The notes beneath the pieces were generated by a model that was not told where the DNA came from, searched no databases, and was given only the letters and a program-made list of their open reading frames with translations. Made by a program: the position numbers and the translations under genes. DNA of 54,045 bases from Candidatus Omnitrophota bacterium (GTDB lineage Bacteria > Omnitrophota > Gorgyraeia > Gygaellales > Profunditerraquicolaceae), in assembly GCA_043813255.1 (NCBI GenBank), contig JBDRLG010000150.1, positions 1 through 54,045 on the forward strand. The letters are read 5' to 3'. Positions 1-54,045 of this stretch are shown here, piece after piece (the stretch's first letter is position 1; the number at the start of each line of letters is the position of its first letter).

Positions 1-140
1 ATTATGACAATTGTTATCGTCGGTAAAATGTTTTTGAGATGTCAATAGCGTGTCATTGCGAGGAACGAAGTGACGAAGCAATCTTCCGTCGTTAAGATTG
101 CTTCGCTCCGCTCGCAATGACACTAATTTGGACAGTAATG
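1..140. repeat. GTCATTGCGAG-family nested palindromic element at the window edge. An inverted copy lies at 53906..54045 and a direct copy at 47171..47300.
   Basis: The core hairpin is gtcattgcgag...gaagcaatct-N-agattgcttc...ctcgcaatgac (50..123). Its unique flank attatgacaattgttatcgtcggtaaaatgtttttgagat recurs, reverse-complemented, at the other window end. Confidence 0.85.
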
Positions 141-163
141 AAATGTTAAAAACGGGTAATTTT

Positions 164-976: not shown

Positions 977-1032
977 GGTAGCCGCAGGCTTTAGCCTGCG
1001 TTTTATTACGCAAGCTGAAGCTTGCGGCTACC
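977..1032. repeat. REPIN-like doublet (GGTAGCCGC-hairpin, spacer, hairpin-GCGGCTACC)
   Basis: The sequence is ggtagccgcaggctttagcctgcg-ttttatta-cgcaagctgaagcttgcggctacc. It has a GTAG head and two inverted short hairpins. Confidence 0.8.
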
Positions 1033-9600: not shown

Positions 9601-9857
9601 GGTAGCCGCAAGCTTAAGCTTGCGTAAATAAACCCAAATTTTGCATTAGCAAAATTTGCCCGCCACGTCCCGTTGGGACTCCGCCGTTGGCGGGGTCCCT
9701 TGCGGGATAGGGCCGGCCGAAAAATCTCGACGAGATTTTTCGTGTTTGCCGGGGTAATCCCGAATTTAGTTTGCATTCTTTTAGTACAGATAATTCGACG
9801 ATATCGGATTTCTAATGCAAAATTTGGGATAAACGCAGGCTAAAGCCTGCGGCTACC
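9601..9857. repeat. REPIN-like doublet (inverted relative to 977..1032) whose loop is interrupted by a MITE
   Basis: The left arm is ggtagccgcaagcttaagcttgcgtaaataaa and the right arm is ataaacgcaggctaaagcctgcggctacc. With the insert removed, the sequence is nearly the reverse complement of 977..1032. Confidence 0.85.
9633..9828. mobile_element. MITE copy 1 (196 bp)
   Basis: It has perfect 17-bp TIRs, cccaaattttgcattag / ctaatgcaaaatttggg. It is flanked by a 5-bp direct duplication ATAAA (9628..9632 and 9829..9833), and the interior is a cluster of GC-rich hairpins. Confidence 0.85.
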
Positions 9858-13643: not shown

Positions 13644-13820
13644 CCCTCCTTTTTGGAGACTGTGCCAAATGAAGCTTTTGGGAGTATTTGTGTCATTGCG
13701 GGGAGTGAAACGACGAAGCAATCTCTACGAGGGTTAAGATTGCTTCCTCTGCACCATACGGTGCAGGGTCGCAATGACACTGAAAAAAGGTCATTTGACC
13801 CGGTCTCACAAGGGGAGGGG
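13644..13820. repeat. ~175-bp nested palindrome, GTCATTGCGAG family (long copy 2)
   Basis: The architecture matches 2402..2567, but the right half carries the module ctgcaccatacggtgcagg where copy 1 has gcccttcggggc. Confidence 0.85.
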
Positions 13821-16981: not shown

Positions 16982-17005
16982 TTTCCTTCCTCTTGTGAAC
17001 CATTT

Positions 17006-17065
17006 GTGTCATTGCGAGGAGCCGTAGGCGACGCGGCCCCGCCTTGGCGGGGCTCGCAATGACAC
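17006..17065. repeat. short GTCATTGCGAG-family hairpin between addA-like and addB-like
   Basis: The sequence is gtgtcattgcgaggagccgtaggcgacgcggccccgccttggcggggctcgcaatgacac. Confidence 0.8.
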
Positions 17066-22781: not shown

Positions 22782-23408
22782 ATGAAATTTACAAAACCAC
22801 TGGATGAGATTTTAAATACTGAAACAAAAATTAGGATACTTAGATTTTTTTGTAGGACAGGTGCGCAGTGGAATGGCAGTCAGATAGCTAAGGAAATAAA
22901 AATAACTCCCGCGGCTACGCATACCGCGTTGCGCGCTTTAGAGAAAGAAGGGTTGCTTATTTTGTGTAATATGGGTAAGACTCATGTTTATAGTTTAAAA
23001 GAAGATTCTTTTTTAGTGTTAAATCTTCTTAAACCGTTATTTACAAAAGAGGATAAAATTCTGGATACCATCATCGGTTTGATTAAGCGCGAAATCTTAG
23101 GTTTTAAGGCAAGAAAAGGTATTGTAAGCGTTGCTTTATTTGGTAGTATTAATATTCATAAGGATCGTTCTACAAGCGATATAGATCTGGCTGTAATTGT
23201 GGAGAATGCCAAGGTAAAGCCTGTTATTGAGCGTTTGTTTGGGGAGTTGGACGCGAGGATATCAAAAGAATTTGGTAATACGCTTTCGCCATACGTAAAT
23301 ACACGAACCGAATTCAAGGCAAAGCATAAAAAAGGCCTTGTTGTTATTAAAAATATCCTAAAGTCGCATAATCTTATCTATGGAGAAAAACTGAAAAGTT
23401 TACTATGA
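22782..23408 (+). CDS. winged-HTH fused to a minimal nucleotidyltransferase (MNT) domain
   Basis: The N-terminus is ArsR/MarR-like (IRILRFF...QIAKEIKITPAATHTALRALEKEGLL). The NTase motif is LFGSINIHKDRSTSDIDLAVIV. Confidence 0.75.
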   Translation: MKFTKPLDEILNTETKIRILRFFCRTGAQWNGSQIAKEIKITPAATHTALRALEKEGLLILCNMGKTHVYSLKEDSFLVLNLLKPLFTKEDKILDTIIGLIKREILGFKARKGIVSVALFGSINIHKDRSTSDIDLAVIVENAKVKPVIERLFGELDARISKEFGNTLSPYVNTRTEFKAKHKKGLVVIKNILKSHNLIYGEKLKSLL

Positions 23409-23794
23409 CAGCTAAGAAACTCAAAACCGTGAATGTGGAGAAAAACGATTATAAAGTTTTCCTTAAGAAGGCAAAAGATTTCTATGAAGTAATGTTCAAT
23501 GCCAGCGATACAGGAAATTGGACAGCGGTGGGCTTAAATGCTGTCCATTGCGCCATATCCTGCTGTGATGCTATGTTGACATTTCATTTAGGTATAAGAT
23601 CAGCAGGTGAGGATCATATGCAGGCAGTGGATCTTCTTACGCGGTTACCATCTGCCGTTAAAGATGGAGAAACAAATACTTTTAAAAGAATCATCGTTAA
23701 AAAGAACCTTATTGCGTATGAGTGCAGGGAATTTCGGCAGACAGAAGCCACGGACATATTAAAAAAAACCAAAAAAAAACCAAGACGCTTTTGA
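23405..23794 (+). CDS. HEPN domain protein, partner of the MNT
   Basis: It overlaps the MNT gene by 4 nt. It carries an Rx4-6H motif (IRSAGEDH) in an alpha-helical context. Confidence 0.7.
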   Translation: MTAKKLKTVNVEKNDYKVFLKKAKDFYEVMFNASDTGNWTAVGLNAVHCAISCCDAMLTFHLGIRSAGEDHMQAVDLLTRLPSAVKDGETNTFKRIIVKKNLIAYECREFRQTEATDILKKTKKKPRRF

Positions 23795-23871
23795 TAACCC
23801 TCTATAATTACTCAGTTTAAGCCGCAATTATTTTCTTCATATTTCACATAATGCCATCCTAAAAAATTTGC

Positions 23872-23910
23872 GTTAGATTTCTCTTTTTCTCACGTCTATT
23901 ATTGTAGAAG
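23872..23910 (+). promoter_or_regulatory. second copy of the conserved 39-nt upstream motif (see 7853..7891)
   Basis: The sequence gttagatttctctttttctcacgtctattattgtagaagg ends 20 nt upstream of the RAYT-like start codon. Confidence 0.4.
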
Positions 23911-23929
23911 GTAGAAGGGAGAAAATCTA

Positions 23930-24604
23930 ATGCCAACTTACGCAAGAGTACATCAGCTTCGCTTATCTTTAATTTATCATATATATAGCAGGAGTAATGG
24001 CAAAATACCTATCTTTAAAAACAGGGATGATTTTATTTATTTTAGGAACCTTCTTAAAAGATATTCTTTAAGATTTGATTTAAAGATATATCATTGGGTA
24101 ATTATGACTAATCATTATCATCTTTTGCTTGAATTAGAAGAGCCGAAGCGAATATCAAAAATTATGGCGGGTTTATCTAAGGCGTATAGCTGTTATTATC
24201 ACAAGGTTTATTCTACTGTTGGATTTCTTTGGCAGGGTAGGTTTAAATTACAGCCGGTTCAGAAAGATAATTATTTAGTTGCCTGTGGTAGATACATAGA
24301 AAGAAATCCTGTGAGAGCCGGAATGGTTAATGAAGCATATGAATATTCCTATAGCAGTGCCAGATATTATTGTTTAGGCGAAAACGACGGTATTACGGTT
24401 GAAAATCCTGCATTCTTATCATTCGGCACAACTTTAGCCTATAGGCGTAATGTATATATAGAGTTCCTGCGTAAATTTGATGGTGAAGAAGAAAAATCAT
24501 TTAATAATCTTGAGTATCCTGTAGGAAATAAGGAATTCTTGAGGAGATTAGTTAGAGAAAATGGCCGTTTTACTTCCATGAGGAGAGGCAGGTTGAGAAA
24601 ATAA
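23930..24604 (+). CDS. REP-associated tyrosine transposase (RAYT)-like, IS200/Y1 HUH family
   Basis: The HUH motif is in VIMTNHYHLLLE, and the catalytic Tyr region is GRYIERNPVRAGMV. It is a single gene with no IS ends visible. Confidence 0.75.
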   Translation: MPTYARVHQLRLSLIYHIYSRSNGKIPIFKNRDDFIYFRNLLKRYSLRFDLKIYHWVIMTNHYHLLLELEEPKRISKIMAGLSKAYSCYYHKVYSTVGFLWQGRFKLQPVQKDNYLVACGRYIERNPVRAGMVNEAYEYSYSSARYYCLGENDGITVENPAFLSFGTTLAYRRNVYIEFLRKFDGEEEKSFNNLEYPVGNKEFLRRLVRENGRFTSMRRGRLRK

Positions 24605-24703
24605 TTATTGCATAAATCATTGGTAGAGATATAATTATCAACAGCGTCTTGAATTTATTTTAAAAAAAGATCAGGTAGATTTAATAAAGGTTGAAAAAGG
24701 AAA

Positions 24704-25816
24704 GTGAAGTTTTATAAAGTATCACGGGCTACTCTATTGATTATAGGTTTTTTTTTAATTCTATTTATTTTTTTTCAAATTATTATTCAAAGATTATTCG
24801 TAAAACATAGTTTATTAAGAGGAGGCTTGACTTGTTTTTTGGCAAATGAATCAGATTATTATATTTATGATAATATTGCCGGGCATGTTCATAAGCCTTA
24901 TGCTATTCGGGAATACAAATGGCAGGAATATAGGAAAGAAAAAATAATTATTAAGACAAATAATATGGGGTTTAGGGAAGACGCGGATACTTTAAGAATA
25001 AAACCTCTTAATACCATACGGATACTTGTTACTGGCGATTCTCATGTTGATGGGGTTTTAGATAATAGCGAATCTTTCCCTAATCAATTGGAGAAGTTAT
25101 TAAATAAGGAATCTAAGGATAGTCACTTTGAAGTTATTAATGGCGGGACAGGTTATTATGGGCCGCATAATTATTATGGATTCTTGAAGAAATTTTTATA
25201 TTTACATCCGGATATTTTTATTGTAACGGTGTATTTAGGCAATGATTTTCTAGACGCGGTTGAATTCGCATATATAGAGTATGGGGGGAATATCCCTCAT
25301 AGTTCAGATGAAACTATTGCCTCATTAGTATCTGTTGGAAAATTGATTGGGGATGGGTATGTATGGCAGTCTTTGAATCAGGTCGTCTATTTTAAAAATT
25401 TCTCATCGGTAAAAAATCTGGCTGTTGAGATTGTTGAACAACAGTTTAAAGATATTAATAATTTATGCCGTAAGAATAAAATAGAATTATTTGTGGTTTT
25501 GTTACCTTCAAAATTAGATGTTGAGAAAGCCCTTGATGATAAATTATTTGATAGGATAGAAACAAATCTGGGCCTTTCACGGCAGGATATGAATATTAAC
25601 CAGCAGTTAAAAAGAGTATTAAGCGATTGGTTTGATGAGAATAAAATTAAATATTTAGATATGACTTGTTATATGGATGGTGTTGAGGGATTATTTTGGC
25701 AGAAAGACGCTCATTTAAGTGTAAAAGGGAATAGATTAGTGTCTGAAATTCTATATTCTAAAATACCTGCTGTTTATATTGAAAATCATGGTCCCGTTAT
25801 AGGAGGAGAAAGATAA
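24704..25816 (+). CDS. SGNH/GDSL family hydrolase with an N-terminal TM anchor
   Basis: Four SGNH blocks are present: block [10 protein letters not shown], block [10 protein letters not shown], block III GNDF and block V DAHLS. The start codon is GTG. Confidence 0.7.
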
Positions 25817-26232
25817 TGAAATCGTATACCCAGCGGTTGGTTTTTGATACTAGGAACAGGCAGGAGCTTATTAATATTACTCCTGAAGTAGAAGAAGCTG
25901 TTTCTAAGAGTAAAATTAAAGAAGGGCTGTGTTTGGTTAACAGTATGCATATTACTTCAAGCGTGTTTATCAATGATGATGAAGGCGGCCTGCATAAGGA
26001 TTTTAGCCAGTGGCTTGAAAAACTGGCTCCCTACGGTAAGGATAAATATCAGCATAATTTAAGCGGCGAGGATAACGGCGACGCGCATTTAAAACGCACA
26101 ATCATGGGCAGGGAAGTCGTTGTGGCGGTTACAAACGGCAAATTAGATTTCGGGCCTTGGGAGCAGATATTTTACGGAGAGTTTGATGGACAAAGAAAGA
26201 AAACTGTTCTGATAAAAATTATTGGGGAATAA
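25816..26232 (+). CDS. YjbQ/UPF0047 family protein (paralog 1)
   Basis: The motifs are [25 protein letters not shown] and [18 protein letters not shown]. The start overlaps the SGNH stop codon by 1 nt (TAATG). Confidence 0.85.
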
Positions 26233-26389
26233 TAAGATTGCTTCGTCAGGCTGCGCCCTCCCCGCAATCAGACTGTGTCACAATCTATATTTTAACGCGG
26301 TAGCCGCAACCTTTAGGTTGCGTTTCCGACGCTGATAAAACGCTCCGCTTACGGAGCGGCTACCGGAAATGCAATTACGACACAGTCTG
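26233..26389. repeat. composite repeat: a half GTCATTGCGAG unit, then the outer stem cagactgtgtc/gacacagtctg enclosing a REPIN doublet (26299..26364)
   Basis: Positions 26263..26364 recur as a 102-nt direct repeat at 47294..47395 with only 2 mismatches. Confidence 0.85.
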
Positions 26390-26460
26390 AATGGCACAAA
26401 AACTCCGTTGGAAGATTTTACTGTTTTTAAATTTTAGTTTGGGTTATAATAAAGGGAATT

Positions 26461-27693
26461 ATGCTGGATATTAAAAAAATTCCCTCTAAAGTTGAATTGG
26501 CTGCTCCTGCTGGAGACTGGCCTTCTCTATATTCCGCGATAGAAGCCGGCGCGGATGCTGTTTATTTCGGAGTCCAAGAATTAAACATGCGCCATGCCGC
26601 GTCTAATTTTGATATTCTTGAAATTAAAAAGGTCCTGTTGTTGCTTCACAAGAATAATAAGAAGGGGTATTTAGCTTTAAATACTATAGTTTATGATACG
26701 GAATTAAATAAACTAAAAAAAATCCTTAAAGAAGCTAAAAAAAGCGGAGTAGACGCGGTAATAGCGTGGGATATGGCAGTTTTACAGGCCGCGGCTGAAT
26801 TAGGGATTCCTGTGCATTTATCTACTCAGGCAAGTGTTTCTAATTTTTCCGCAGTGAAATTTTATTCCTCTTTGGGCATAAAAAGGATTGTTTTGGCAAG
26901 AGAATGCCGGCTTTCTGATATTGAAGATATAATCAAGAAGATTAAAATATCGTCTTTAGACTGCCAAATAGAAGTTTTTATACATGGCGCGGTGTGCGTT
27001 AGTTTATCTGGCAGGTGTTTGTTTTCCCATCATCTTTTTGGCAAATCAGCTAACCGCGGAGAATGTTTTCAGCTTTGCAGAAGGCAGTATTTAATTAAGG
27101 ATGTTGACCAGGGTAAAGAATATATATTAGGTAAGGATTATGTGTTAAGCGCGAAAGACATTTGTACTGTTGAAATTATAGATAAATTAATAAAAGCGGG
27201 AATCAGCGTTTTTAAAATAGAAGGCAGGATGAGGCCCGCGGAATACACAAAGATTGTCACTTCTGTATATAGAGAAGCTATAGACGCGTTTTATAATAAG
27301 AAATTAACTAATAGGTTAAAAATCTCTTTGCGTAAAAAACTGGATAGGATTTATAACCGCGGTTTTGATACTGGGTTTTACCTTGGCGATCCGGATGGTT
27401 CTATGAGCCAGATAGGGTCTTCAGAATATGAAAAGGTGTTTTTAGGCAGTGTGGTGAAATTTTATGAGAAGATTAAAGTCGCGGAAATAGTAATAAGAAA
27501 TAACAGCGTTTCAAAAGGCGATGAAATATTAGTATATGGGAAAAATACCCCTGCTCTTTTTGCTAAAGTTGGAGAGATGCAAATTAAACATAAGCCTGTA
27601 GAGACAGCTCAAAGAGGCGAATCCGTGGGGATTAAACTGCCTTTCGCGGTTAGGCCTAAAGATAAAATTTTTCTTTGGAAAAATAAAGAATAA
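26461..27693 (+). CDS. peptidase U32 family protein (RlhA/TrhP/UbiU-like hydroxylase family)
   Basis: The U32 core is followed by a four-Cys cluster (HGAVCVSLSGRCLFS...GECFQLCRR) and a C-terminal beta-barrel region. Confidence 0.8.
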   Translation: MLDIKKIPSKVELAAPAGDWPSLYSAIEAGADAVYFGVQELNMRHAASNFDILEIKKVLLLLHKNNKKGYLALNTIVYDTELNKLKKILKEAKKSGVDAVIAWDMAVLQAAAELGIPVHLSTQASVSNFSAVKFYSSLGIKRIVLARECRLSDIEDIIKKIKISSLDCQIEVFIHGAVCVSLSGRCLFSHHLFGKSANRGECFQLCRRQYLIKDVDQGKEYILGKDYVLSAKDICTVEIIDKLIKAGISVFKIEGRMRPAEYTKIVTSVYREAIDAFYNKKLTNRLKISLRKKLDRIYNRGFDTGFYLGDPDGSMSQIGSSEYEKVFLGSVVKFYEKIKVAEIVIRNNSVSKGDEILVYGKNTPALFAKVGEMQIKHKPVETAQRGESVGIKLPFAVRPKDKIFLWKNKE

Positions 27694-30211: not shown

Positions 30212-30368
30212 CCCAAATTTTGCATTAGCAAAATTTGCCCGCCACGTCCCGTTGGGACTCCGCCGTTGGCGGGGTCCCTTGCGGGAAAGGGCCGGCCGAT
30301 TAAATCTGGATAGATTTAATCGTGCTCGTCGGGGTAATCCGGATAAGATTTTTAATGCAAAATGAGGG
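30212..30368. mobile_element. MITE copy 2 (157 bp)
   Basis: The left TIR is identical to copy 1 and the right TIR is degenerate (ttaatgcaaaatgaggg). It is flanked by a 5-bp duplication ATAAT (30207..30211 and 30369..30373), and the left duplicate contains the smr stop codon. Confidence 0.85.
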
Positions 30369-40155: not shown

Positions 40156-40353
40156 CCCTCGCCCCAACGAGGCTGTGCCAAATGAAGCTTTTGGGAGTAT
40201 TTGTGTCATTGCGAGGAGTGAAACGACGAAGCAATCTCGACGAGGATTAAGATTGCTTCCCCTGCACCATACGGTGCAGGGTCGTAATGACACTCAAAAA
40301 TGGCCATTTGACCCAGTCTCCAACGGGGAGAGCCTGCCTGCCGGTAGGCAGGA
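40156..40353. repeat. ~175-bp nested palindrome, GTCATTGCGAG family (long copy 3), plus a gcctgcctgccggtaggcagg unit
   Basis: It is collinear with 13644..13820. The outer stem is changed to ccccaacgaggctg/cagtctccaacgggg. Confidence 0.85.
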
Positions 40354-45402: not shown

Positions 45403-45461
45403 GGTAGCCGCTCCGTAAGCGGAGCACTTTATTACGCCCCGCCAAAGGCGAGGCGGCTACC
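45403..45461. repeat. REPIN-like doublet
   Basis: The sequence is ggtagccgctccgtaagcggagc...cgccccgccaaaggcgaggcggctacc. It is the near-exact reverse complement of 47930..47988. Confidence 0.8.
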
Positions 45462-45532: not shown

Positions 45533-45717
45533 ATTAATCTTCGGGGTGAGGTGAAAGTCCTGACCGGCGGTTGCGCAGAAAGCGCACACCGGCGTTTCTT
45601 TTTACGCCGGGTGTAAAGCCCGCGAGTTCCAGTATAACGCTGGGGCAGATCCGGTAAAATTCCGGAGCCGATGGTTGTGCCGATAGCGCAGAAAGTCCAG
45701 ATGAGAGGAGATTAAAA
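45533..45717 (+). promoter_or_regulatory. FMN riboswitch (RFN element)
   Basis: The conserved cores are present: cttcggggtgaggtgaaagtcctgaccggcggt, aagcccgcgag, gatccggtaaaattccggagccgatggt and agtccagatgagaggag. P1 pairs ttaatct with agattaa. Two peripheral loops are enlarged. Confidence 0.9.
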
Positions 45718-45814: not shown

Positions 45815-45954
45815 ATAATCCCGCTGCGTGTGATATTACAAAAATTTCTTCGATATTTTTGTAATACTTCGCGGGATAAATTCAGACAGATAATTTATGT
45901 TCGCTTTCTGCCTATCGGCAGGCGTTCCATAAATTATGTCTTCATTTATGTTCA
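45815..45954 (+). promoter_or_regulatory. conserved rib leader element, copy 1 (second copy at 50609..50733)
   Basis: It is about 85% identical by eye to copy 2 and extends into the start codon region. Hairpin 1 is atcccgc...attacaaaaat-ttcttcgat-atttttgtaat...gcgggat. Hairpin 2 is ataatttatg...cataaattat. Confidence 0.6.
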
Positions 45955-47144
45955 ATTCCATTCCAGAAATATTAGAGGATTTAAAAAAAGGCCGTATGGT
46001 TATCGTGGTTGATGATGAAGACCGTGAGAACGAAGGGGATTTGGTTATTGCCGCTTCTTTCGCTAAAGCGGAGAATATTAACTTTATGGCAAAATTCGGC
46101 CGCGGTTTAATATGCGTGCCTATGGAAGAAGGCCGGCTTAAACAGCTGGATTTACAGCCGATGATGCCTGAAAAGGCAAAGGATCCTTTTTCAACCGCGT
46201 GGATGGTTTCTGTAGACGCGGCCAAAGGTATTACCACGGGAATTTCCGCTTATGACCGCAGCCATACAATAGAGACGCTTATTAATCCGCAGAGCCGGCC
46301 GGAAGATTTGATTTCTCCCGGGCATCTATTTCCTCTTAAGGCTCGCAATGGCGGCGTGTTAGTCCGGGCAGGCCATACTGAAGCGGCAGTAGATATGATG
46401 AATCTATCAGGGCTTTATCCGGCAGGGGTTATTTGCGAGATTATGAATGAAGATGGCACAATGGCAAGGCTTCCCGAGTTAATAGAGTTTTCAAAAAAGC
46501 ATAAATTAAAAATTTGTTCTATTGAAGAACTGATAAAATACCGCAGGCGTTCAGAGAAATTAGTTGAAAGGTTATCAGAGACGATTTTGCCTTCTGAATA
46601 CGGGACATATAAACTTATAGTGTATCGCGATTTAACCAATGAGCAGGTTCATGTTGCTTTGGTTATGGGAGAAATACAAGGGCAGGATGTGCTTGTGCGC
46701 GTGCATTCTGAATGCCTTACTGGAGATGTCTTCGCGTCTTTACGCTGTGACTGCGGCAGGCAGTTGAAGAAAGCAATGCAGTTGATTGATAAAGAGAAAA
46801 AAGGAGTAGTGCTTTATATGAATCAGGAAGGCCGCGGTATAGGGCTGGCTGAAAAAATACGCGCTTACAGCTTGCAGGATAAAGGTATGGATACAGTGGA
46901 AGCAAATGAAGCTTTAGGCTATCAGCCTGATCTAAGAGATTATGGTATAGGCGCGCAGATTTTGTCTGACTTAGGGCTTAAAAATATCCGGCTTATGACT
47001 AATAACCCGCGTAAAATTGTCGGGCTGGAAGGGTATGGTTTAAAAGTTATAGAGAGAGTCTCTATAGAAATAGAACCTAATCCTGTAAATTATAATTATC
47101 TAAAAACAAAAAAAGAAAAATTAGGGCATCAGTTAAAAATATAA
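45948..47144 (+). CDS. ribBA: bifunctional 3,4-dihydroxy-2-butanone-4-phosphate synthase / GTP cyclohydrolase II
   Basis: The DHBP synthase motif is [13 protein letters not shown]. The GCH-II zinc site is [19 protein letters not shown] start it at the second ATG (45948, MFNSIPEI). The ATG at 45936 is an alternative. Confidence 0.92.
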
Positions 47145-47170: not shown

Positions 47171-47300
47171 ATTATGATAATTGTTATCGCCGGTAAAATG
47201 TTTTTGAGATGCCAATAGCGTGTCATTGCGAGGACCCCGACGTTACGTCGGGGGACGAAGCATCTTCCGTCGTTAAGATTGCTTCGCTTCGCTCGCAATC
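47171..47300. repeat. GTCATTGCGAG-family element, direct copy of the window-start element
   Basis: The sequence is attatgataattgttatcgccggtaaaatgtttttgagatgccaatagcgtgtcattgcgagg...gattgcttcgcttcgctcgcaat. It is fused to the cagactgtgtc module. Confidence 0.85.
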
Positions 47301-47395
47301 AGACTGTGTCACAATCTATATTTTAACGCGGTAGCCGCAACCTTTAGGTTGCGTTTTCGACGCTGGTAAAACGCTCCGCTTACGGAGCGGCTACC
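47294..47395. repeat. 102-nt direct repeat of 26263..26364, containing the REPIN doublet 47330..47395
   Basis: Only two mismatches separate the copies by eye (gtttcc/gttttc and ctgata/ctggta). Confidence 0.9.
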
Positions 47396-47929: not shown

Positions 47930-47988
47930 GGTAGCCGCCTCGCCTTTGGCGGGGCGTAGTAAAACGCTCCGCTTACGGAGCGACTACC
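47930..47988. repeat. REPIN-like doublet (inverted copy of 45403..45461)
   Basis: The sequence is ggtagccgcctcgcctttggcggggcgtagtaaaacgctccgcttacggagcgactacc. Confidence 0.8.
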
Positions 47989-50608: not shown

Positions 50609-50733
50609 ATAATCCCGCTTTGTATGATATCACAAAAATTTCTTCGATATTTTTGTGATACTCCGCGGGATAAGTTCAGGCAATATAATTTATGTTCACT
50701 ATGTTTCATAAATTATGCCTTCACTTATGTTCA
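50609..50733 (+). promoter_or_regulatory. conserved rib leader element, copy 2
   Basis: It is collinear with 45815..45954. The hairpin stem is changed compensatorily (atcacaaaaat/atttttgtgat versus attacaaaaat/atttttgtaat). It lacks the 17-nt ctgcctatcggcagg insert. Confidence 0.6.
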
Positions 50734-51326: not shown

Positions 51327-51541
51327 GGTAGCCGCAGGCTTCAGCCTGCGTCGTTCAAGAGACTGTTGCGAAATACCTTAAATTCGTCATTCTGCGGCTC
51401 GCCTCGCGGCGAAGCCGAGGGCTTGACCGCAGAATCCATAAACATTTTATCGAAGATGATAGATCCTGCGCTTTCGCGCAGGATGACAAAAATGGAGTTT
51501 TGCAACAGACTCTCCAACGCAAGCTAAAGCTTGCGGCTACC
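51327..51541. repeat. REPIN-like doublet whose loop carries a nested palindromic insert
   Basis: The REPIN arms are ggtagccgcaggcttcagcctgcg and cgcaagctaaagcttgcggctacc. The inner stems are gagactgttgc/gcaacagactc and gtcattctgcgg.../...caggatgac. Confidence 0.85.
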
Positions 51542-53841: not shown

Positions 53842-53905
53842 GAGAGGATCCCTTGATATGAAAATAAAAAAGACATAATTTAAAAATTTATGGATTATTT
53901 ATTAT

Positions 53906-54045
53906 CATTACTGTCCAAATTAGTGTCATTGCGAGCGAAGCGAAGCAATCTTATCGTCGAAGGATTGCTTCGTCACTTCGTTCCTCGCAATGACACGCTA
54001 ATAATATCTCAAAAACATTTTACCGACGATAGCAATTATCATAAT
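53906..54045. repeat. GTCATTGCGAG-family element at the window end, reverse complement of 1..140
   Basis: The sequence ttactgtccaaattagtgtcattgcgag...ctcgcaatgacacgctaataatatctcaaaaacattttaccgacgatagcaattatcataat is about 90% identical by eye to the reverse complement of the first 140 nt. Confidence 0.85.

What the first reader, a model, noticed from the sequence alone, without database searches (positions are those of the whole stretch)
23930..24604. A single RAYT-like HUH transposase in a window saturated with GTAG-headed REP doublets (a REPIN/RAYT system)
**The repeats.** At least seven doublets have the form GGTAGCCGC-hairpin...hairpin-GCGGCTACC. They lie at 977, 9601, 26299, 45403, 47330, 47930 and 51327. 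Each has a conserved GTAG tetranucleotide 5' of a short imperfect palindrome, and they pair in inverted orientation. This is the architecture described for REP/REPIN elements mobilised by REP-associated tyrosine transposases.

**The candidate enzyme.** ORF 23930..24604 carries the HUH motif (NHYHLLL) and the downstream catalytic Tyr region. It has no IS ends of its own.

**Modular hairpins.** At least five different stem-loops recur in different combinations: gcaggcYYYagcctgc, gcaagctNaagcttgc, gctccgYYagcggagc, gccccgccWWWggcgRggc and gcaacctttaggttgc. This implies recombination or templated exchange between units. The density, about one doublet per 8 kb plus the other families, is unusually high.
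Basis: partly seen in the sequence, partly recalled or inferred. Interest (0 to 1): 0.65.

Follow-up and report, generated by a model that had tools for sequence, protein, structure and literature searches.

The report
REP doublets beside an unrelated TIR-flanked transposase
The GTAG-headed hairpin doublets are genuine REP/REPIN-type repeats, but the neighbouring HUH-tyrosine gene is a different, already described type (a TIRYT with its own inverted-repeat ends), and the enzyme that normally goes with these repeats is a shorter RAYT that is not in this window.

Summary
Seven GGTAGCCGC…GCGGCTACC doublets exist (13 exact heads against 0.12 expected), all intergenic. ORF 23930-24604 is an intact HUH/Tyr (Y1) protein.

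The claim that the gene has "no ends of its own" is wrong. The gene sits in an ~871-bp unit bounded by 17-nt terminal inverted repeats, CAAGACGCTKTTGATAA, at 23781-23797 and 24635-24651. Omnitrophota orthologues at 66-94% identity carry the same TIR at the same places; two at ~60% carry a diverged version. Gene-less TIR dimers and solo ends occur in relatives.

By its motifs (NHYH, WQ, YIERNP, 224 aa) the protein fits the published TIRYT/TIRtron class (TnpA-Y1 subclass 2.1). That class is described as not REP-associated. The protein lacks the GTAG-contacting residues of E. coli TnpA-REP and scores below the NCBIfam RAYT cut-off.

The doublets belong to a REP family found in about 20 phylum-level lineages. 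Its cognate enzyme is a short (~160 aa) RAYT. In all 22 loci examined, that gene has the same GTAGCCGC hairpins within 160 nt, mostly on both sides in inverted orientation. No such gene is in the window.

Verdict: two separate, known kinds of Y1 system lie side by side, and the proposed enzyme-substrate pairing is most likely wrong. Interest is moderate.

The parts
23761..23783 (+). Tandem 'stutter' (A8-9CC repeated) abutting the outer edge of the left TIR. It also encodes the last residues of the upstream 129-aa ORF.
   Evidence: The strict tandem test found such duplications at 12 of 24 TIR ends, against 9.4% of control positions.
23781..23797 (+). Left terminal inverted repeat of the TIRtron, CAAGACGCTTTTGATAA. 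It overlaps the stop codon of ORF 23405-23794.
   Evidence: only two copies in the window; recognisably conserved in most orthologous loci; no hairpin potential.
23873..23922 (+). Conserved promoter-like TTAGAT-18 nt-TATTAT and ribosome-binding site AAGGGAG upstream of the Y1 gene.
   Evidence: Read directly from the flank sequences printed. The motif is conserved in all orthologous loci. Function is inferred.
23930..24604 (+). TIRYT-type HUH/Y1 protein, 224 aa. Motifs: NHYH 61-64, WQ 101-102, Y122-IERNP, SS 142-143.
24635..24651 (-). Right terminal inverted repeat of the TIRtron; its reverse complement reads CAAGACGCTGTTGATAA.
977..1032 (.). GTAG-REP head-to-head doublet, stems AGGC/AAGC. It folds as one long hairpin.
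   Evidence: z = -7.6.
9601..9857 (.). GTAG-REP doublet, stems AAGC/AGGC. Its AT-rich spacer carries a nested 196-bp MITE-like insert at 9633-9828.
26299..26364 (.). GTAG-REP doublet, stems AACC/TCCG. It is part of a 115-nt repeat shared with 47281-47395.
   Evidence: (family D3).
45403..45461 (.). GTAG-REP doublet, stems TCCG/CCCGCC, lying 72 nt upstream of the FMN riboswitch. It is an inverted copy of 47930-47988.
   Evidence: (pair I2).
47330..47395 (.). GTAG-REP doublet, stems AACC/TCCG.
47930..47988 (.). GTAG-REP doublet, stems CCCGCC/TCCG. The right head is mutated to GGTAGTCGC.
51327..51541 (.). GTAG-REP doublet, stems AGGC/AAGC, with a ~165-nt insert in the spacer that has its own inverted repeat.

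Best explanation
Two separate systems related to Y1 transposases lie side by side in this window.

**System 1: the TIRtron.** ORF 23930-24604 encodes a TIRYT-type HUH/Y1 nuclease (TnpA-Y1 subclass 2.1, Bertels group 1). It sits in an ~871-bp unit with its own promoter, bounded by 17-nt terminal inverted repeats that do not form hairpins. I infer that these TIRs, and not the GTAG hairpins, are its DNA substrate. The enzyme would nick and rejoin single-stranded DNA at the outer TIR edge, around CAA|GACGC. This activity, now or in the past, would have spread the unit and its gene-less derivatives. It would also have left the tandem 'stutter' duplications seen at the TIR edges.

**System 2: the doublets.** The seven GGTAGCCGC doublets are GTAG-type REP head-to-head dimers, that is, REPINs. 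They belong to a family found across many bacterial phyla. Their cognate enzyme is a short (~160 aa) RAYT, whose gene is typically sandwiched between the same REPs. That gene is not in this window and, if the genome still has it, must lie elsewhere.

**Shown:** the repeats, the TIRs, their conservation in relatives, the REP-RAYT linkage in other genomes, and the protein class.

**Inferred:** the catalytic specificity of each enzyme, the nick site, and current mobility.
For: **The TIRtron**
- The TIR has only two copies in the window, and they bracket the gene.
- The same TIR sits at the same positions in orthologues at 66-94% protein identity; two at ~60% carry a diverged form beginning GTAGAC.
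- An identical protein, P0008, occurs with at least 3 different left flanks and at least 3 different right flanks. Homology stops exactly at the TIR.
- Relatives carry gene-less TIR dimers, a TIR pair around another gene, and solo ends with nested tandem duplications.
- Stutter duplications abut 12 of 24 TIR ends, against 9.4% of control positions.
- The TIRs have no hairpin potential.

**The protein class**
- Pfam Y1_Tnp.
- NCBIfam RAYT model at 67.1 bits, below the 80-bit cut-off.
- The best PDB relative is E. coli TnpA-REP, 4ER8, by profile (E = 9e-5) and by fold (E = 1.3e-5).
- At the 4ER8 positions E100/H101/R104 the protein has L107/Q108/Q111.
- The motifs NHYH, WQ, YIERNP and SS, and the length of 224 aa, match subclass 2.1. 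That class is described as TIR-flanked and not REP-associated (PMC6006769; PMC3733652).

**The doublets and their enzyme**
- In locus L044, from an Omnitrophota genome, a 161-aa protein passes the NCBIfam RAYT cut-off (82.7 bits against 80). GTAGCCGC hairpins abut it.
- Its homologues carry a plus-oriented head within 160 nt upstream in 17 of 21 loci.
- They carry a minus-oriented head within 160 nt downstream in 16 of 20 loci.
- All 22 loci examined (L044 plus 21 homologues) have at least one head within 160 nt.
- None of 11 TIRYT loci has a head within 300 nt.
- The arrangement was confirmed in a Nitrospirae and a Gammaproteobacteria assembly; a gap-ridden Syntrophomonadaceae contig shows one downstream head.
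- The window has no short RAYT.
- REP stems are Watson-Crick compensated in 201 of 223 units, using 10 pair types.
Against: - Only 54 kb of this genome could be examined, so the presence of a short RAYT in it is unproven.
- No biochemical data exist for any TIRYT. Cross-mobilisation of GTAG REPs by a TIRYT was raised as an open question in PMC3733652 and is not excluded.
- The subclass assignment rests on motif signatures and length, not on the authors' HMMs or a phylogeny.
- The C-terminal helix-turn-helix domain reported for subclass 2.1 was not detected here.
- The nick site CAA|GACGC is inferred only from the phase of the stutter.
- In this window the TIR is present only at the gene itself, so local evidence of mobility is indirect. 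It rests on the TIR overlapping the stop codon of the upstream ORF.
Confidence: 0.75

Rival explanations
1. The 224-aa Y1 protein is the RAYT that mobilises the GGTAGCCGC doublets of this genome, forming a REPIN/RAYT pair.
For: - The protein is closer to E. coli TnpA-REP than to IS200-type TnpA and has the class-2 Y---NP motif.
- It is the only Y1 gene in a REP-rich 54-kb window.
- Some distant TIRYT TIRs begin with GTAG: L160 and L166 have GTAGAC....
- The spacer of two doublets contains GACGCTG(A/G)TAAAAC, which faintly resembles the TIR core. This was noticed after the fact.
Against: - No REP lies within 300 nt of the gene in any of 11 loci; the nearest doublet here is 1.7 kb away.
- The gene has its own unrelated TIRs.
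- It scores below the RAYT model cut-off.
- It lacks the GTAG-contact residues of TnpA-REP.
- About 99 kb of TIRYT loci from other genomes hold only 3 GTAGCCGC heads, against 15 in the 54-kb window.
- A different, short RAYT is the protein physically flanked by this REP.
Confidence: 0.08
2. The TIRtron is a domesticated, immobile host gene. On this view the TIRs are operator or regulatory sites, or sites of a host single-stranded-DNA process, and the protein no longer transposes anything. The flank stutters would be ordinary microsatellite slippage in AT-rich DNA.
For: - In several lineages the gene sits at a stable place among housekeeping genes across samples (L160, L163-165, L166-169).
- Group 1 RAYTs average fewer than 2 copies per replicon (PMC5581495).
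- No target-site duplication is visible.
- Simple tandem repeats are fairly common in these genomes; the control rate was 9.4%.
Against: - An identical protein occurs in at least 3 different flank contexts.
- Gene-less TIR dimers and solo ends are dispersed in relatives.
- There is no conserved synteny between lineages.
- The stutter is about five-fold enriched and is always phased on the last 3 nt of the TIR.
- The left TIR here overlaps the stop codon of the upstream ORF, as expected for an insertion.
Confidence: 0.2
3. The doublets are not currently mobile. On this view they are relict or selected structural elements, such as mRNA 3'-end stabilisers or terminators, kept by selection on the hairpins after this lineage lost the RAYT.
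For: - Six of seven doublets lie downstream of a co-directional gene, four of them only 26-28 nt from the stop codon.
- Stems show compensatory change, which indicates selection on structure.
- No RAYT is in the window.
Against: - Copies share both arms plus the spacer at 88-96% identity, which fits the doublet being copied as a unit.
- Depth at the doublet spikes 10-40-fold in related groundwater metagenome contigs.
- The conserved GTAG head has no role in a plain terminator.
- The absence of a RAYT from 54 kb says little about the whole genome.
Confidence: 0.15

Closest known systems
TIRYT / TIRtron (Di Nocera et al. 2013, PMC3733652), corresponding to TnpA-Y1 subclass 2.1 (Quentin et al. 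2018, PMC6006769) and Bertels RAYT group 1 (PMC5581495)
   Same: - Y1 HUH protein of about 225-240 aa with NH[YF]H, W[EQ] and YI..NP motifs and an SS tail motif.
- The gene is flanked by terminal inverted repeats unrelated to GTAG REPs, with no REP nearby.
- In some genomes the TIRs form small dispersed families of singles, dimers and clusters.
   Different: - The TIR sequence, CAAGACGCTKTTGATAA, is not the published GGGGWSAS type.
- No Bac_DnaA_C or HTH domain was detectable in the C-terminus.
- This is a large family in Candidatus Omnitrophota with more than 2000 homologues.
- I found no description of phased tandem 'stutter' of the flank at the TIR edge in the papers I read.
E. coli TnpA-REP with REP/BIME elements (PDB 4ER8), and the REPIN-RAYT systems of Pseudomonas (Bertels and Rainey 2011)
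   Same: - For the doublets: a GTAG head 5' of a short GC-rich hairpin, inverted pairs with heads outward, intergenic position and heterodimer pairing.
- In relatives, a single short RAYT gene is sandwiched between the same REPs.
   Different: - The same REP 22-mer, GTAGCCGC-A-NN-CT..AG-NN-T-GCG, is seen in about 20 phylum-level lineages and in genomes of 30-73% G+C. The described families are confined to a genus or family.
- The cognate RAYT is absent from this window.
- The 224-aa protein here shares only the catalytic core with 4ER8, at 17% identity.
IS200/IS605 TnpA (IS608, ISDra2)
   Same: - The HUH/Y1 fold (Foldseek probability about 1.0, E about 1e-2).
- A small unit of a single gene.
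   Different: - The Tyr motif is Y---NP, not Y---Q.
- There are no subterminal hairpins: the ends are unstructured inverted repeats.
- The window protein gave no match to the NCBIfam IS200 model at E <= 0.01.
- There is no tnpB partner.

Membership tests
RAYT of a REPtron (cognate enzyme of GTAG REPs), tested on ORF 23930-24604 | HUH/Y1 catalytic core with the class-2 Tyr motif Y---NP | tested here: met
   NHYH at 61-64 and Y122-IERNP are invariant in 40 homologues. The best PDB relative is 4ER8.
RAYT of a REPtron (cognate enzyme of GTAG REPs), tested on ORF 23930-24604 | The gene is directly flanked by copies of the dispersed REP family | tested here: not met
   There are no GTAG[CT]CGC heads within 300 nt of the gene in the window or in 10 other loci. 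The nearest doublet is at 26299.
RAYT of a REPtron (cognate enzyme of GTAG REPs), tested on ORF 23930-24604 | Passes the curated cut-off of NCBIfam NF047646, REP_Tyr_transpos | tested here: not met
   It scores 67.1 bits against a cut-off of 80. The short L044 protein scores 82.7.
RAYT of a REPtron (cognate enzyme of GTAG REPs), tested on ORF 23930-24604 | Residues equivalent to E. coli TnpA-REP E100/H101/R104, which read the GTAG guide | tested here: not met
   The profile alignment to 4ER8 gives L107/Q108/Q111. The short RAYT has D/H/R at these positions. The residue roles come from PMC6006769.
RAYT of a REPtron (cognate enzyme of GTAG REPs), tested on ORF 23930-24604 | Single copy per genome and vertical inheritance | not testable with these tools
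   Only 54 kb of this genome is available, and the exact protein is not on record.
TIRYT / TIRtron (TnpA-Y1 subclass 2.1) | The gene is bracketed by terminal inverted repeats unrelated to REPs | tested here: met
   TIRs lie at 23781-23797 and 24635-24651 and are recognisably conserved in most orthologous loci.
TIRYT / TIRtron (TnpA-Y1 subclass 2.1) | Motif signature NH[YF]H, W[EQ], YI(E/H)LNP-like, an SS tail motif, and a length of about 238 aa | tested here: met
   The protein has NHYH, WQ, YIERNP and S142-S143 and is 224 aa long. These match Table 1 of PMC6006769. Placement with the authors' HMMs or a tree was not done.
TIRYT / TIRtron (TnpA-Y1 subclass 2.1) | C-terminal helix-turn-helix domain (Bac_DnaA_C, HTH_23 or HTH_28) | tested here: inconclusive
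   Pfam gave no hit even at E <= 10. A model of the C-terminal domain (pLDDT 68.5) has no PDB match.
IS200/IS605 insertion sequence | Y---Q Tyr motif and subterminal hairpins at both ends | tested here: not met
   The Tyr motif is YIERNP. The ends fold at 0 to -0.8 kcal/mol, no better than shuffles.
GTAG-type REP / REPIN, tested on the seven doublets | GT[AG]G tetranucleotide at the 5' foot of a short GC-rich hairpin, in multiple intergenic copies | tested here: met
GTAG-type REP / REPIN, tested on the seven doublets | Two REPs in inverted orientation, copied together as one unit | tested here: met
   The seven head-out dimers fall into three sequence classes. Members of a class share both arms and the spacer at 88-96% identity.
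GTAG-type REP / REPIN, tested on the seven doublets | A cognate RAYT gene flanked by the same REP | tested here: inconclusive
   Not met inside the window, and the rest of this genome could not be searched. Met in other genomes: L044, L131-L159 and L170-L172.

The most novel reading that the evidence does not exclude
Two points go beyond what I could find described.

**(a) One widely shared REPtron lineage.** The REP GTAGCCGC-A-NN-CT-loop-AG-N'N'-T-GCG and its ~160-aa RAYT may form a single REPtron lineage shared by about 20 bacterial phylum-level lineages. These span genomes of 30-73% G+C, including Omnitrophota, Planctomycetota such as Brocadia, Nitrospirota, Acidobacteriota, Bacteroidota, CPR and Firmicutes. 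The 22-nt REP stays almost invariant while the enzyme diverges to about 45% identity. That is far broader than the lineage-specific, vertically inherited REPIN-RAYT pairs described so far.

**(b) A footprint of TIRYT activity.** The Omnitrophota TIRtrons carry phased tandem duplications of flank plus the terminal 3 nt at their TIR edges, and nested duplications at solo ends. These would be the first footprint of TIRYT activity and would point to a nick at CAA|GACGC.
Probability: 0.4. Interest if true: 0.55.

Novelty: new member of a known kind. Interest (0 to 1): 0.4.

Why it matters
- **Annotation.** The result corrects a tempting error. A RAYT-like gene sitting in a REP-rich region is not automatically the mobiliser of those REPs.
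- **A comparison system.** Omnitrophota genomes carry both a TIRYT with its TIR family and GTAG REPs whose partner is a different, short RAYT. Both Y1 classes are also found within the phylum: L044 is an Omnitrophota contig with a short RAYT beside these REPs. That makes the phylum a natural place to compare the two classes. Whether one genome holds both could not be tested here.
- **A biochemical handle on TIRYTs.** The conserved 17-nt TIR and the phased stutter give a concrete, testable substrate and nick site for TIRYTs. I found no biochemistry for this class.
- **How REPIN-RAYT systems spread.** If confirmed by a proper census, the very wide distribution of one REP 22-mer bears on whether these systems are strictly vertical partners of their hosts or spread horizontally.

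Tried and rejected
- **DnaA-box idea.** The TIR contains TTATCAACA, one mismatch from the DnaA box TTATCCACA, and subclass 2.1 is reported to carry a DnaA_C-like tail. Pfam on the C-terminal 115 aa found nothing relevant even at E <= 10. Foldseek with the whole model and with a separate C-terminal model gave no HTH or DnaA hit. The idea is dropped as unsupported.
- **Rfam.** At gathering thresholds the window gave only an FMN riboswitch, so the doublets are not a curated RNA family.
- **Exact-sequence look-up.** The window protein is not on record.
- **PDB search with the single sequence.** It gave nothing. A profile was needed.
- **Chance hits in the genome scan.** The doublet pattern has 18 fixed bases, so by my estimate it should match a few hundred times by chance in 596 Gb. 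A strict two-hairpin test failed 62 of 115 hits: mostly GC-rich sequence without hairpins, plus some imperfect or long-palindrome doublets. Only the 53 that passed were used.
- **Contigs from public runs.** I laid groundwater metagenome contigs on 22800-26500 to look for empty sites or excision joints of the TIRtron. Coverage was too thin and fragmentary. It showed only a depth spike at the REP doublet and one more stuttered right-end context.
- **Literature search for the REP sequence.** No relevant paper turned up, and there was only one unrelated GTAGCCGC-type entry in the supplements.
- **GTAG near the gene.** The GTAG strings close to the gene, GTAGAAGGTAGAAGG upstream and GGTAGAG downstream, are not followed by hairpins and are not conserved in orthologues. 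They are not REPs.
Full report
**1. The observation**

The window is 54,045 bp at 37% G+C. GGTAGCCGC occurs 13 times, against 0.12 expected from dinucleotide-preserving shuffles. With one mutated head, GGTAGTCGC at 47988, these form seven doublets with the heads pointing outward: 977-1032, 9601-9857, 26299-26364, 45403-45461, 47330-47395, 47930-47988 and 51327-51541.

Each head is followed directly by an 8-9 bp GC-rich hairpin. As single-stranded DNA, the five short doublets fold either as one long hairpin or as an outer stem carrying two hairpins, with z-scores of -3.7 to -7.6; the two insert-carrying doublets were not folded. All seven lie between ORFs. Six of them are downstream of a co-directional gene.

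AGGC pairs with AAGC three times, AACC with TCCG twice, and TCCG with CCCGCC twice. Copies of one class share both arms and the spacer (D3, I2, I5, I8, I9). This fits the doublet being copied as a unit, as in a REPIN.

The two long doublets are short doublets with foreign inserts in the AT-rich spacer. The 196-bp insert at 9633-9828 recurs at 30212-30368 without any REP beside it.

ORF 23930-24604 is intact. It matches Pfam Y1_Tnp and is the only Y1 ORF in the window.

**2. The gene has its own ends**

I compared the flanks of the window gene with those of its orthologues. The loci came from exact-protein look-ups, and the proteins are 60-94% identical to the window protein. A conserved inverted repeat appeared.

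- Upstream the repeat reads CAAGACGCTTTTGATAA, at 23781-23797.
- Downstream it reads TTATCAACAGCGTCTTG, at 24635-24651.
- These are the only two copies in the window, and they bound an ~871-bp unit.
- The unit also has a conserved promoter-like TTAGAT-18 nt-TATTAT and a ribosome-binding site.
- The TIRs have no hairpin potential.
- In two distant lineages the TIR has changed to GTAGACGCTTTACCTAA (L166) and GTAGACAGTTTACGTAA (L160).

An identical protein, P0008, which is 82% identical to the window protein, occurs with at least three left and three right flanking contexts. Homology stops exactly at the TIR.

In relatives the TIR also occurs away from the gene:

- a gene-less TIR dimer of about 126 bp at L163 5357-5482;
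- a TIR pair around an HTH gene at L160 11295-11885;
- solo left ends in tandem at L003 3236-3290;
- a solo right end with nested tandem duplications at L001 12380-12560.

Outside many TIR ends, the flank plus the last 3 nt of the TIR is tandemly duplicated. This holds for 12 of 24 ends, against 9.4% of control positions. The window's left end, A8CC-A9CC-AAGACGC, is one example. In the window the left TIR overlaps the stop codon of the upstream 129-aa ORF, which looks like an insertion.

**3. What kind of Y1 protein it is**

The family is large, with more than 2000 hits. The named hits are all Candidatus Omnitrophota, and members are typically 228 aa.

- The protein scores 67.1 bits on NCBIfam REP_Tyr_transpos, below the 80-bit cut-off.
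- A 40-sequence profile finds E. coli TnpA-REP (4ER8) at E = 9e-5 and ISDra2 TnpA only at E = 0.7.
- An AlphaFold model (pLDDT 73.5) matches 4ER8 best, at E = 1.3e-5, with IS608 TnpA at about 1e-2.
- The core is therefore RAYT-like rather than IS200-like.

Its motifs are NHYH, WQ, YIERNP and an invariant SS, and it is 224 aa long. These match TnpA-Y1 subclass 2.1 in Table 1 of Quentin et al. 2018 (PMC6006769). That subclass equals Bertels group 1 and probably corresponds to the TIRYT/TIRtron class of Di Nocera et al. 2013 (PMC3733652). The class is described as flanked by TIRs, with no REP-like sequences nearby.

In the alignment to 4ER8, the GTAG-contact positions E100/H101/R104 are L107/Q108/Q111 in the window family. 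I could not detect the C-terminal HTH reported for subclass 2.1.

**4. Who goes with the GTAG doublets**

I scanned one genome per GTDB species with the pattern GGTAGCCGC-N30-60-GCGGCTACC. Many hits are chance matches in GC-rich DNA, as I expected for a pattern with 18 fixed bases in 596 Gb.

Fifty-three of 115 matches passed a strict test for two hairpins. Most of these carry the same stems as the window: GCAGGCT..AGCCTGC, GCAACCT..AGGTTGC, GCACCCT..AGGGTGC and GCAAGCT..AGCTTGC. Some lineages, such as Gemmataceae, Tepidisphaeraceae and Verrucomicrobia, combine the same head with their own stems. The loci come from genomes of 30-73% G+C in about 20 phylum-level lineages.

One such locus, L044, is from an Omnitrophota genome assembled from a metagenome. 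It encodes a 161-aa Y1 protein that passes the RAYT cut-off (82.7 bits against 80). The protein has the motifs DHLH, WQ and YLAENP, and D/H/R at the GTAG-contact positions. GTAGCCGC hairpins abut its gene.

A metagenome scan for its relatives gave 29 loci at 40-57% identity. Counts for the distinct loci:

| Test | Short RAYT loci | TIRYT loci |
|---|---|---|
| Plus-oriented head within 160 nt upstream | 17 of 21 | - |
| Minus-oriented head within 160 nt downstream | 16 of 20 | - |
| At least one head within 160 nt | 22 of 22 | - |
| Any head within 300 nt | - | 0 of 11 |

The REPtron arrangement with the same REP was confirmed in a Nitrospirae and a Gammaproteobacteria assembly. A Syntrophomonadaceae contig, broken by assembly gaps, shows one downstream head. 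The window encodes no such short RAYT.

Across all loci, 201 of 223 REP units are Watson-Crick compensated at the two variable stem positions, using 10 pair types. This explains the "modular" stems without any need for templated exchange. Heterodimer pairing is already described for REP families.

**5. Conclusion**

The doublets are genuine GTAG-type REP dimers, that is, REPINs. The neighbouring gene is a TIRYT in its own TIRtron and most likely acts on its own TIRs.

The proposed pairing is not supported. It cannot be formally excluded without the whole genome or biochemistry. I estimate the pairing at about 0.08.

Both elements are members of known kinds. Two things may be new: the very wide phyletic spread and sequence constancy of this particular REP, and the phased stutter at TIR edges. 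The stutter resembles the tandem reiteration with flanking DNA described for REP clusters, and it suggests a nick at the CAA|GACGC boundary.

**6. Limits**

- Only 54 kb of the source genome was available.
- The public runs that hold related sequence are low-coverage groundwater metagenome contigs. They gave only a depth spike at the doublet and one more stuttered TIR context.
- The subclass assignment rests on motifs, not on a phylogeny.

Noticed in passing
window 45533-45716 (+), with ORF 45936-47144: An FMN riboswitch (Rfam RF00050, 82.9 bits) lies ahead of a ribBA gene (DHBP synthase plus GTP cyclohydrolase II). The REP doublet 45403-45461 sits 72 nt upstream of the riboswitch.
   Followed up: partly
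window 1-141, 2414-2575, 13656-13817, 17000-17065, 40169-40330, 47171-47305, 53905-54045: A second repeat family has outer arms GTGTCATTGCGAG...CTCGCAATGACAC around variable GC-rich hairpins. The two window ends are 93% inverted copies of it, so the contig probably broke at this repeat.
   Followed up: no
window 9633-9828 and 30212-30368: A MITE-like element of 157-196 bp has terminal inverted repeats CCCAAATTTTGCATTAG and a structured GC-rich core. One copy is nested in the AT-rich spacer of a REP doublet; the other stands alone. ATAAA/ATAAT-like duplications may flank it.
   Followed up: partly
window 51351-51517: A ~165-nt insert lies inside REP doublet 51327-51541. It has its own inverted repeat, GAGACTGTTGC...GCAACAGACTC, and internal hairpins. 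No second copy was seen in the window.
   Followed up: no
window 45815-45888 and 50609-50682: A 74-nt palindromic repeat, ATAATCCCGC...ATATTACAAAAATTTCTTCGATATTTTTGTAATA...GCGGGATAA, occurs as two copies at 89% identity.
   Followed up: no
L001 12380-12560; L003 3236-3290; L160 11295-11885; L163 5357-5482: In relatives the TIRs of the TIRYT family occur away from the gene. Forms seen are solo ends with nested tandem duplications, tandem solo left ends, a TIR pair around an HTH gene, and a gene-less 126-bp TIR dimer. Together they look like a small non-autonomous family.
   Followed up: partly
L008 about 2421; L014 and L015 just after the gene: An rve/DDE-type insertion sequence abuts the TIRtron exactly at the GACGC boundary, once at the left end and once, inverted, at the right end. 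This suggests the TIR edge is an insertion hotspot or a recombination point.
   Followed up: no
L001, L003, L007, L160, L163, L166 and window 22782-25816: In every locus seen, the TIRYT gene is co-oriented with its neighbours. It often lies next to toxin-antitoxin-like genes: BrnT, ParE, PhdYeFM, and in the window a nucleotidyltransferase ORF with an overlapping 129-aa ORF.
   Followed up: no
L135 3478-3760; L171 about 1280-2200: Regular tandem arrays of REP unit plus flank lie next to short RAYT genes, with a 39-nt period in L135. This is the REP counterpart of the stutter seen at TIR edges.
   Followed up: no
L003 131-781: A second, N-terminally degraded paralogue of the TIRYT lies about 900 bp upstream of the intact copy (E = 6e-37 to the window protein). 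A copy of the promoter motif accompanies it.
   Followed up: no
window 26272-26395 in runs X3 and X4: Contig word depth at the REP doublet is 198x and 958x, against about 20x for neighbouring genes, in groundwater metagenomes. The REP is therefore highly repeated in those communities.
   Followed up: partly
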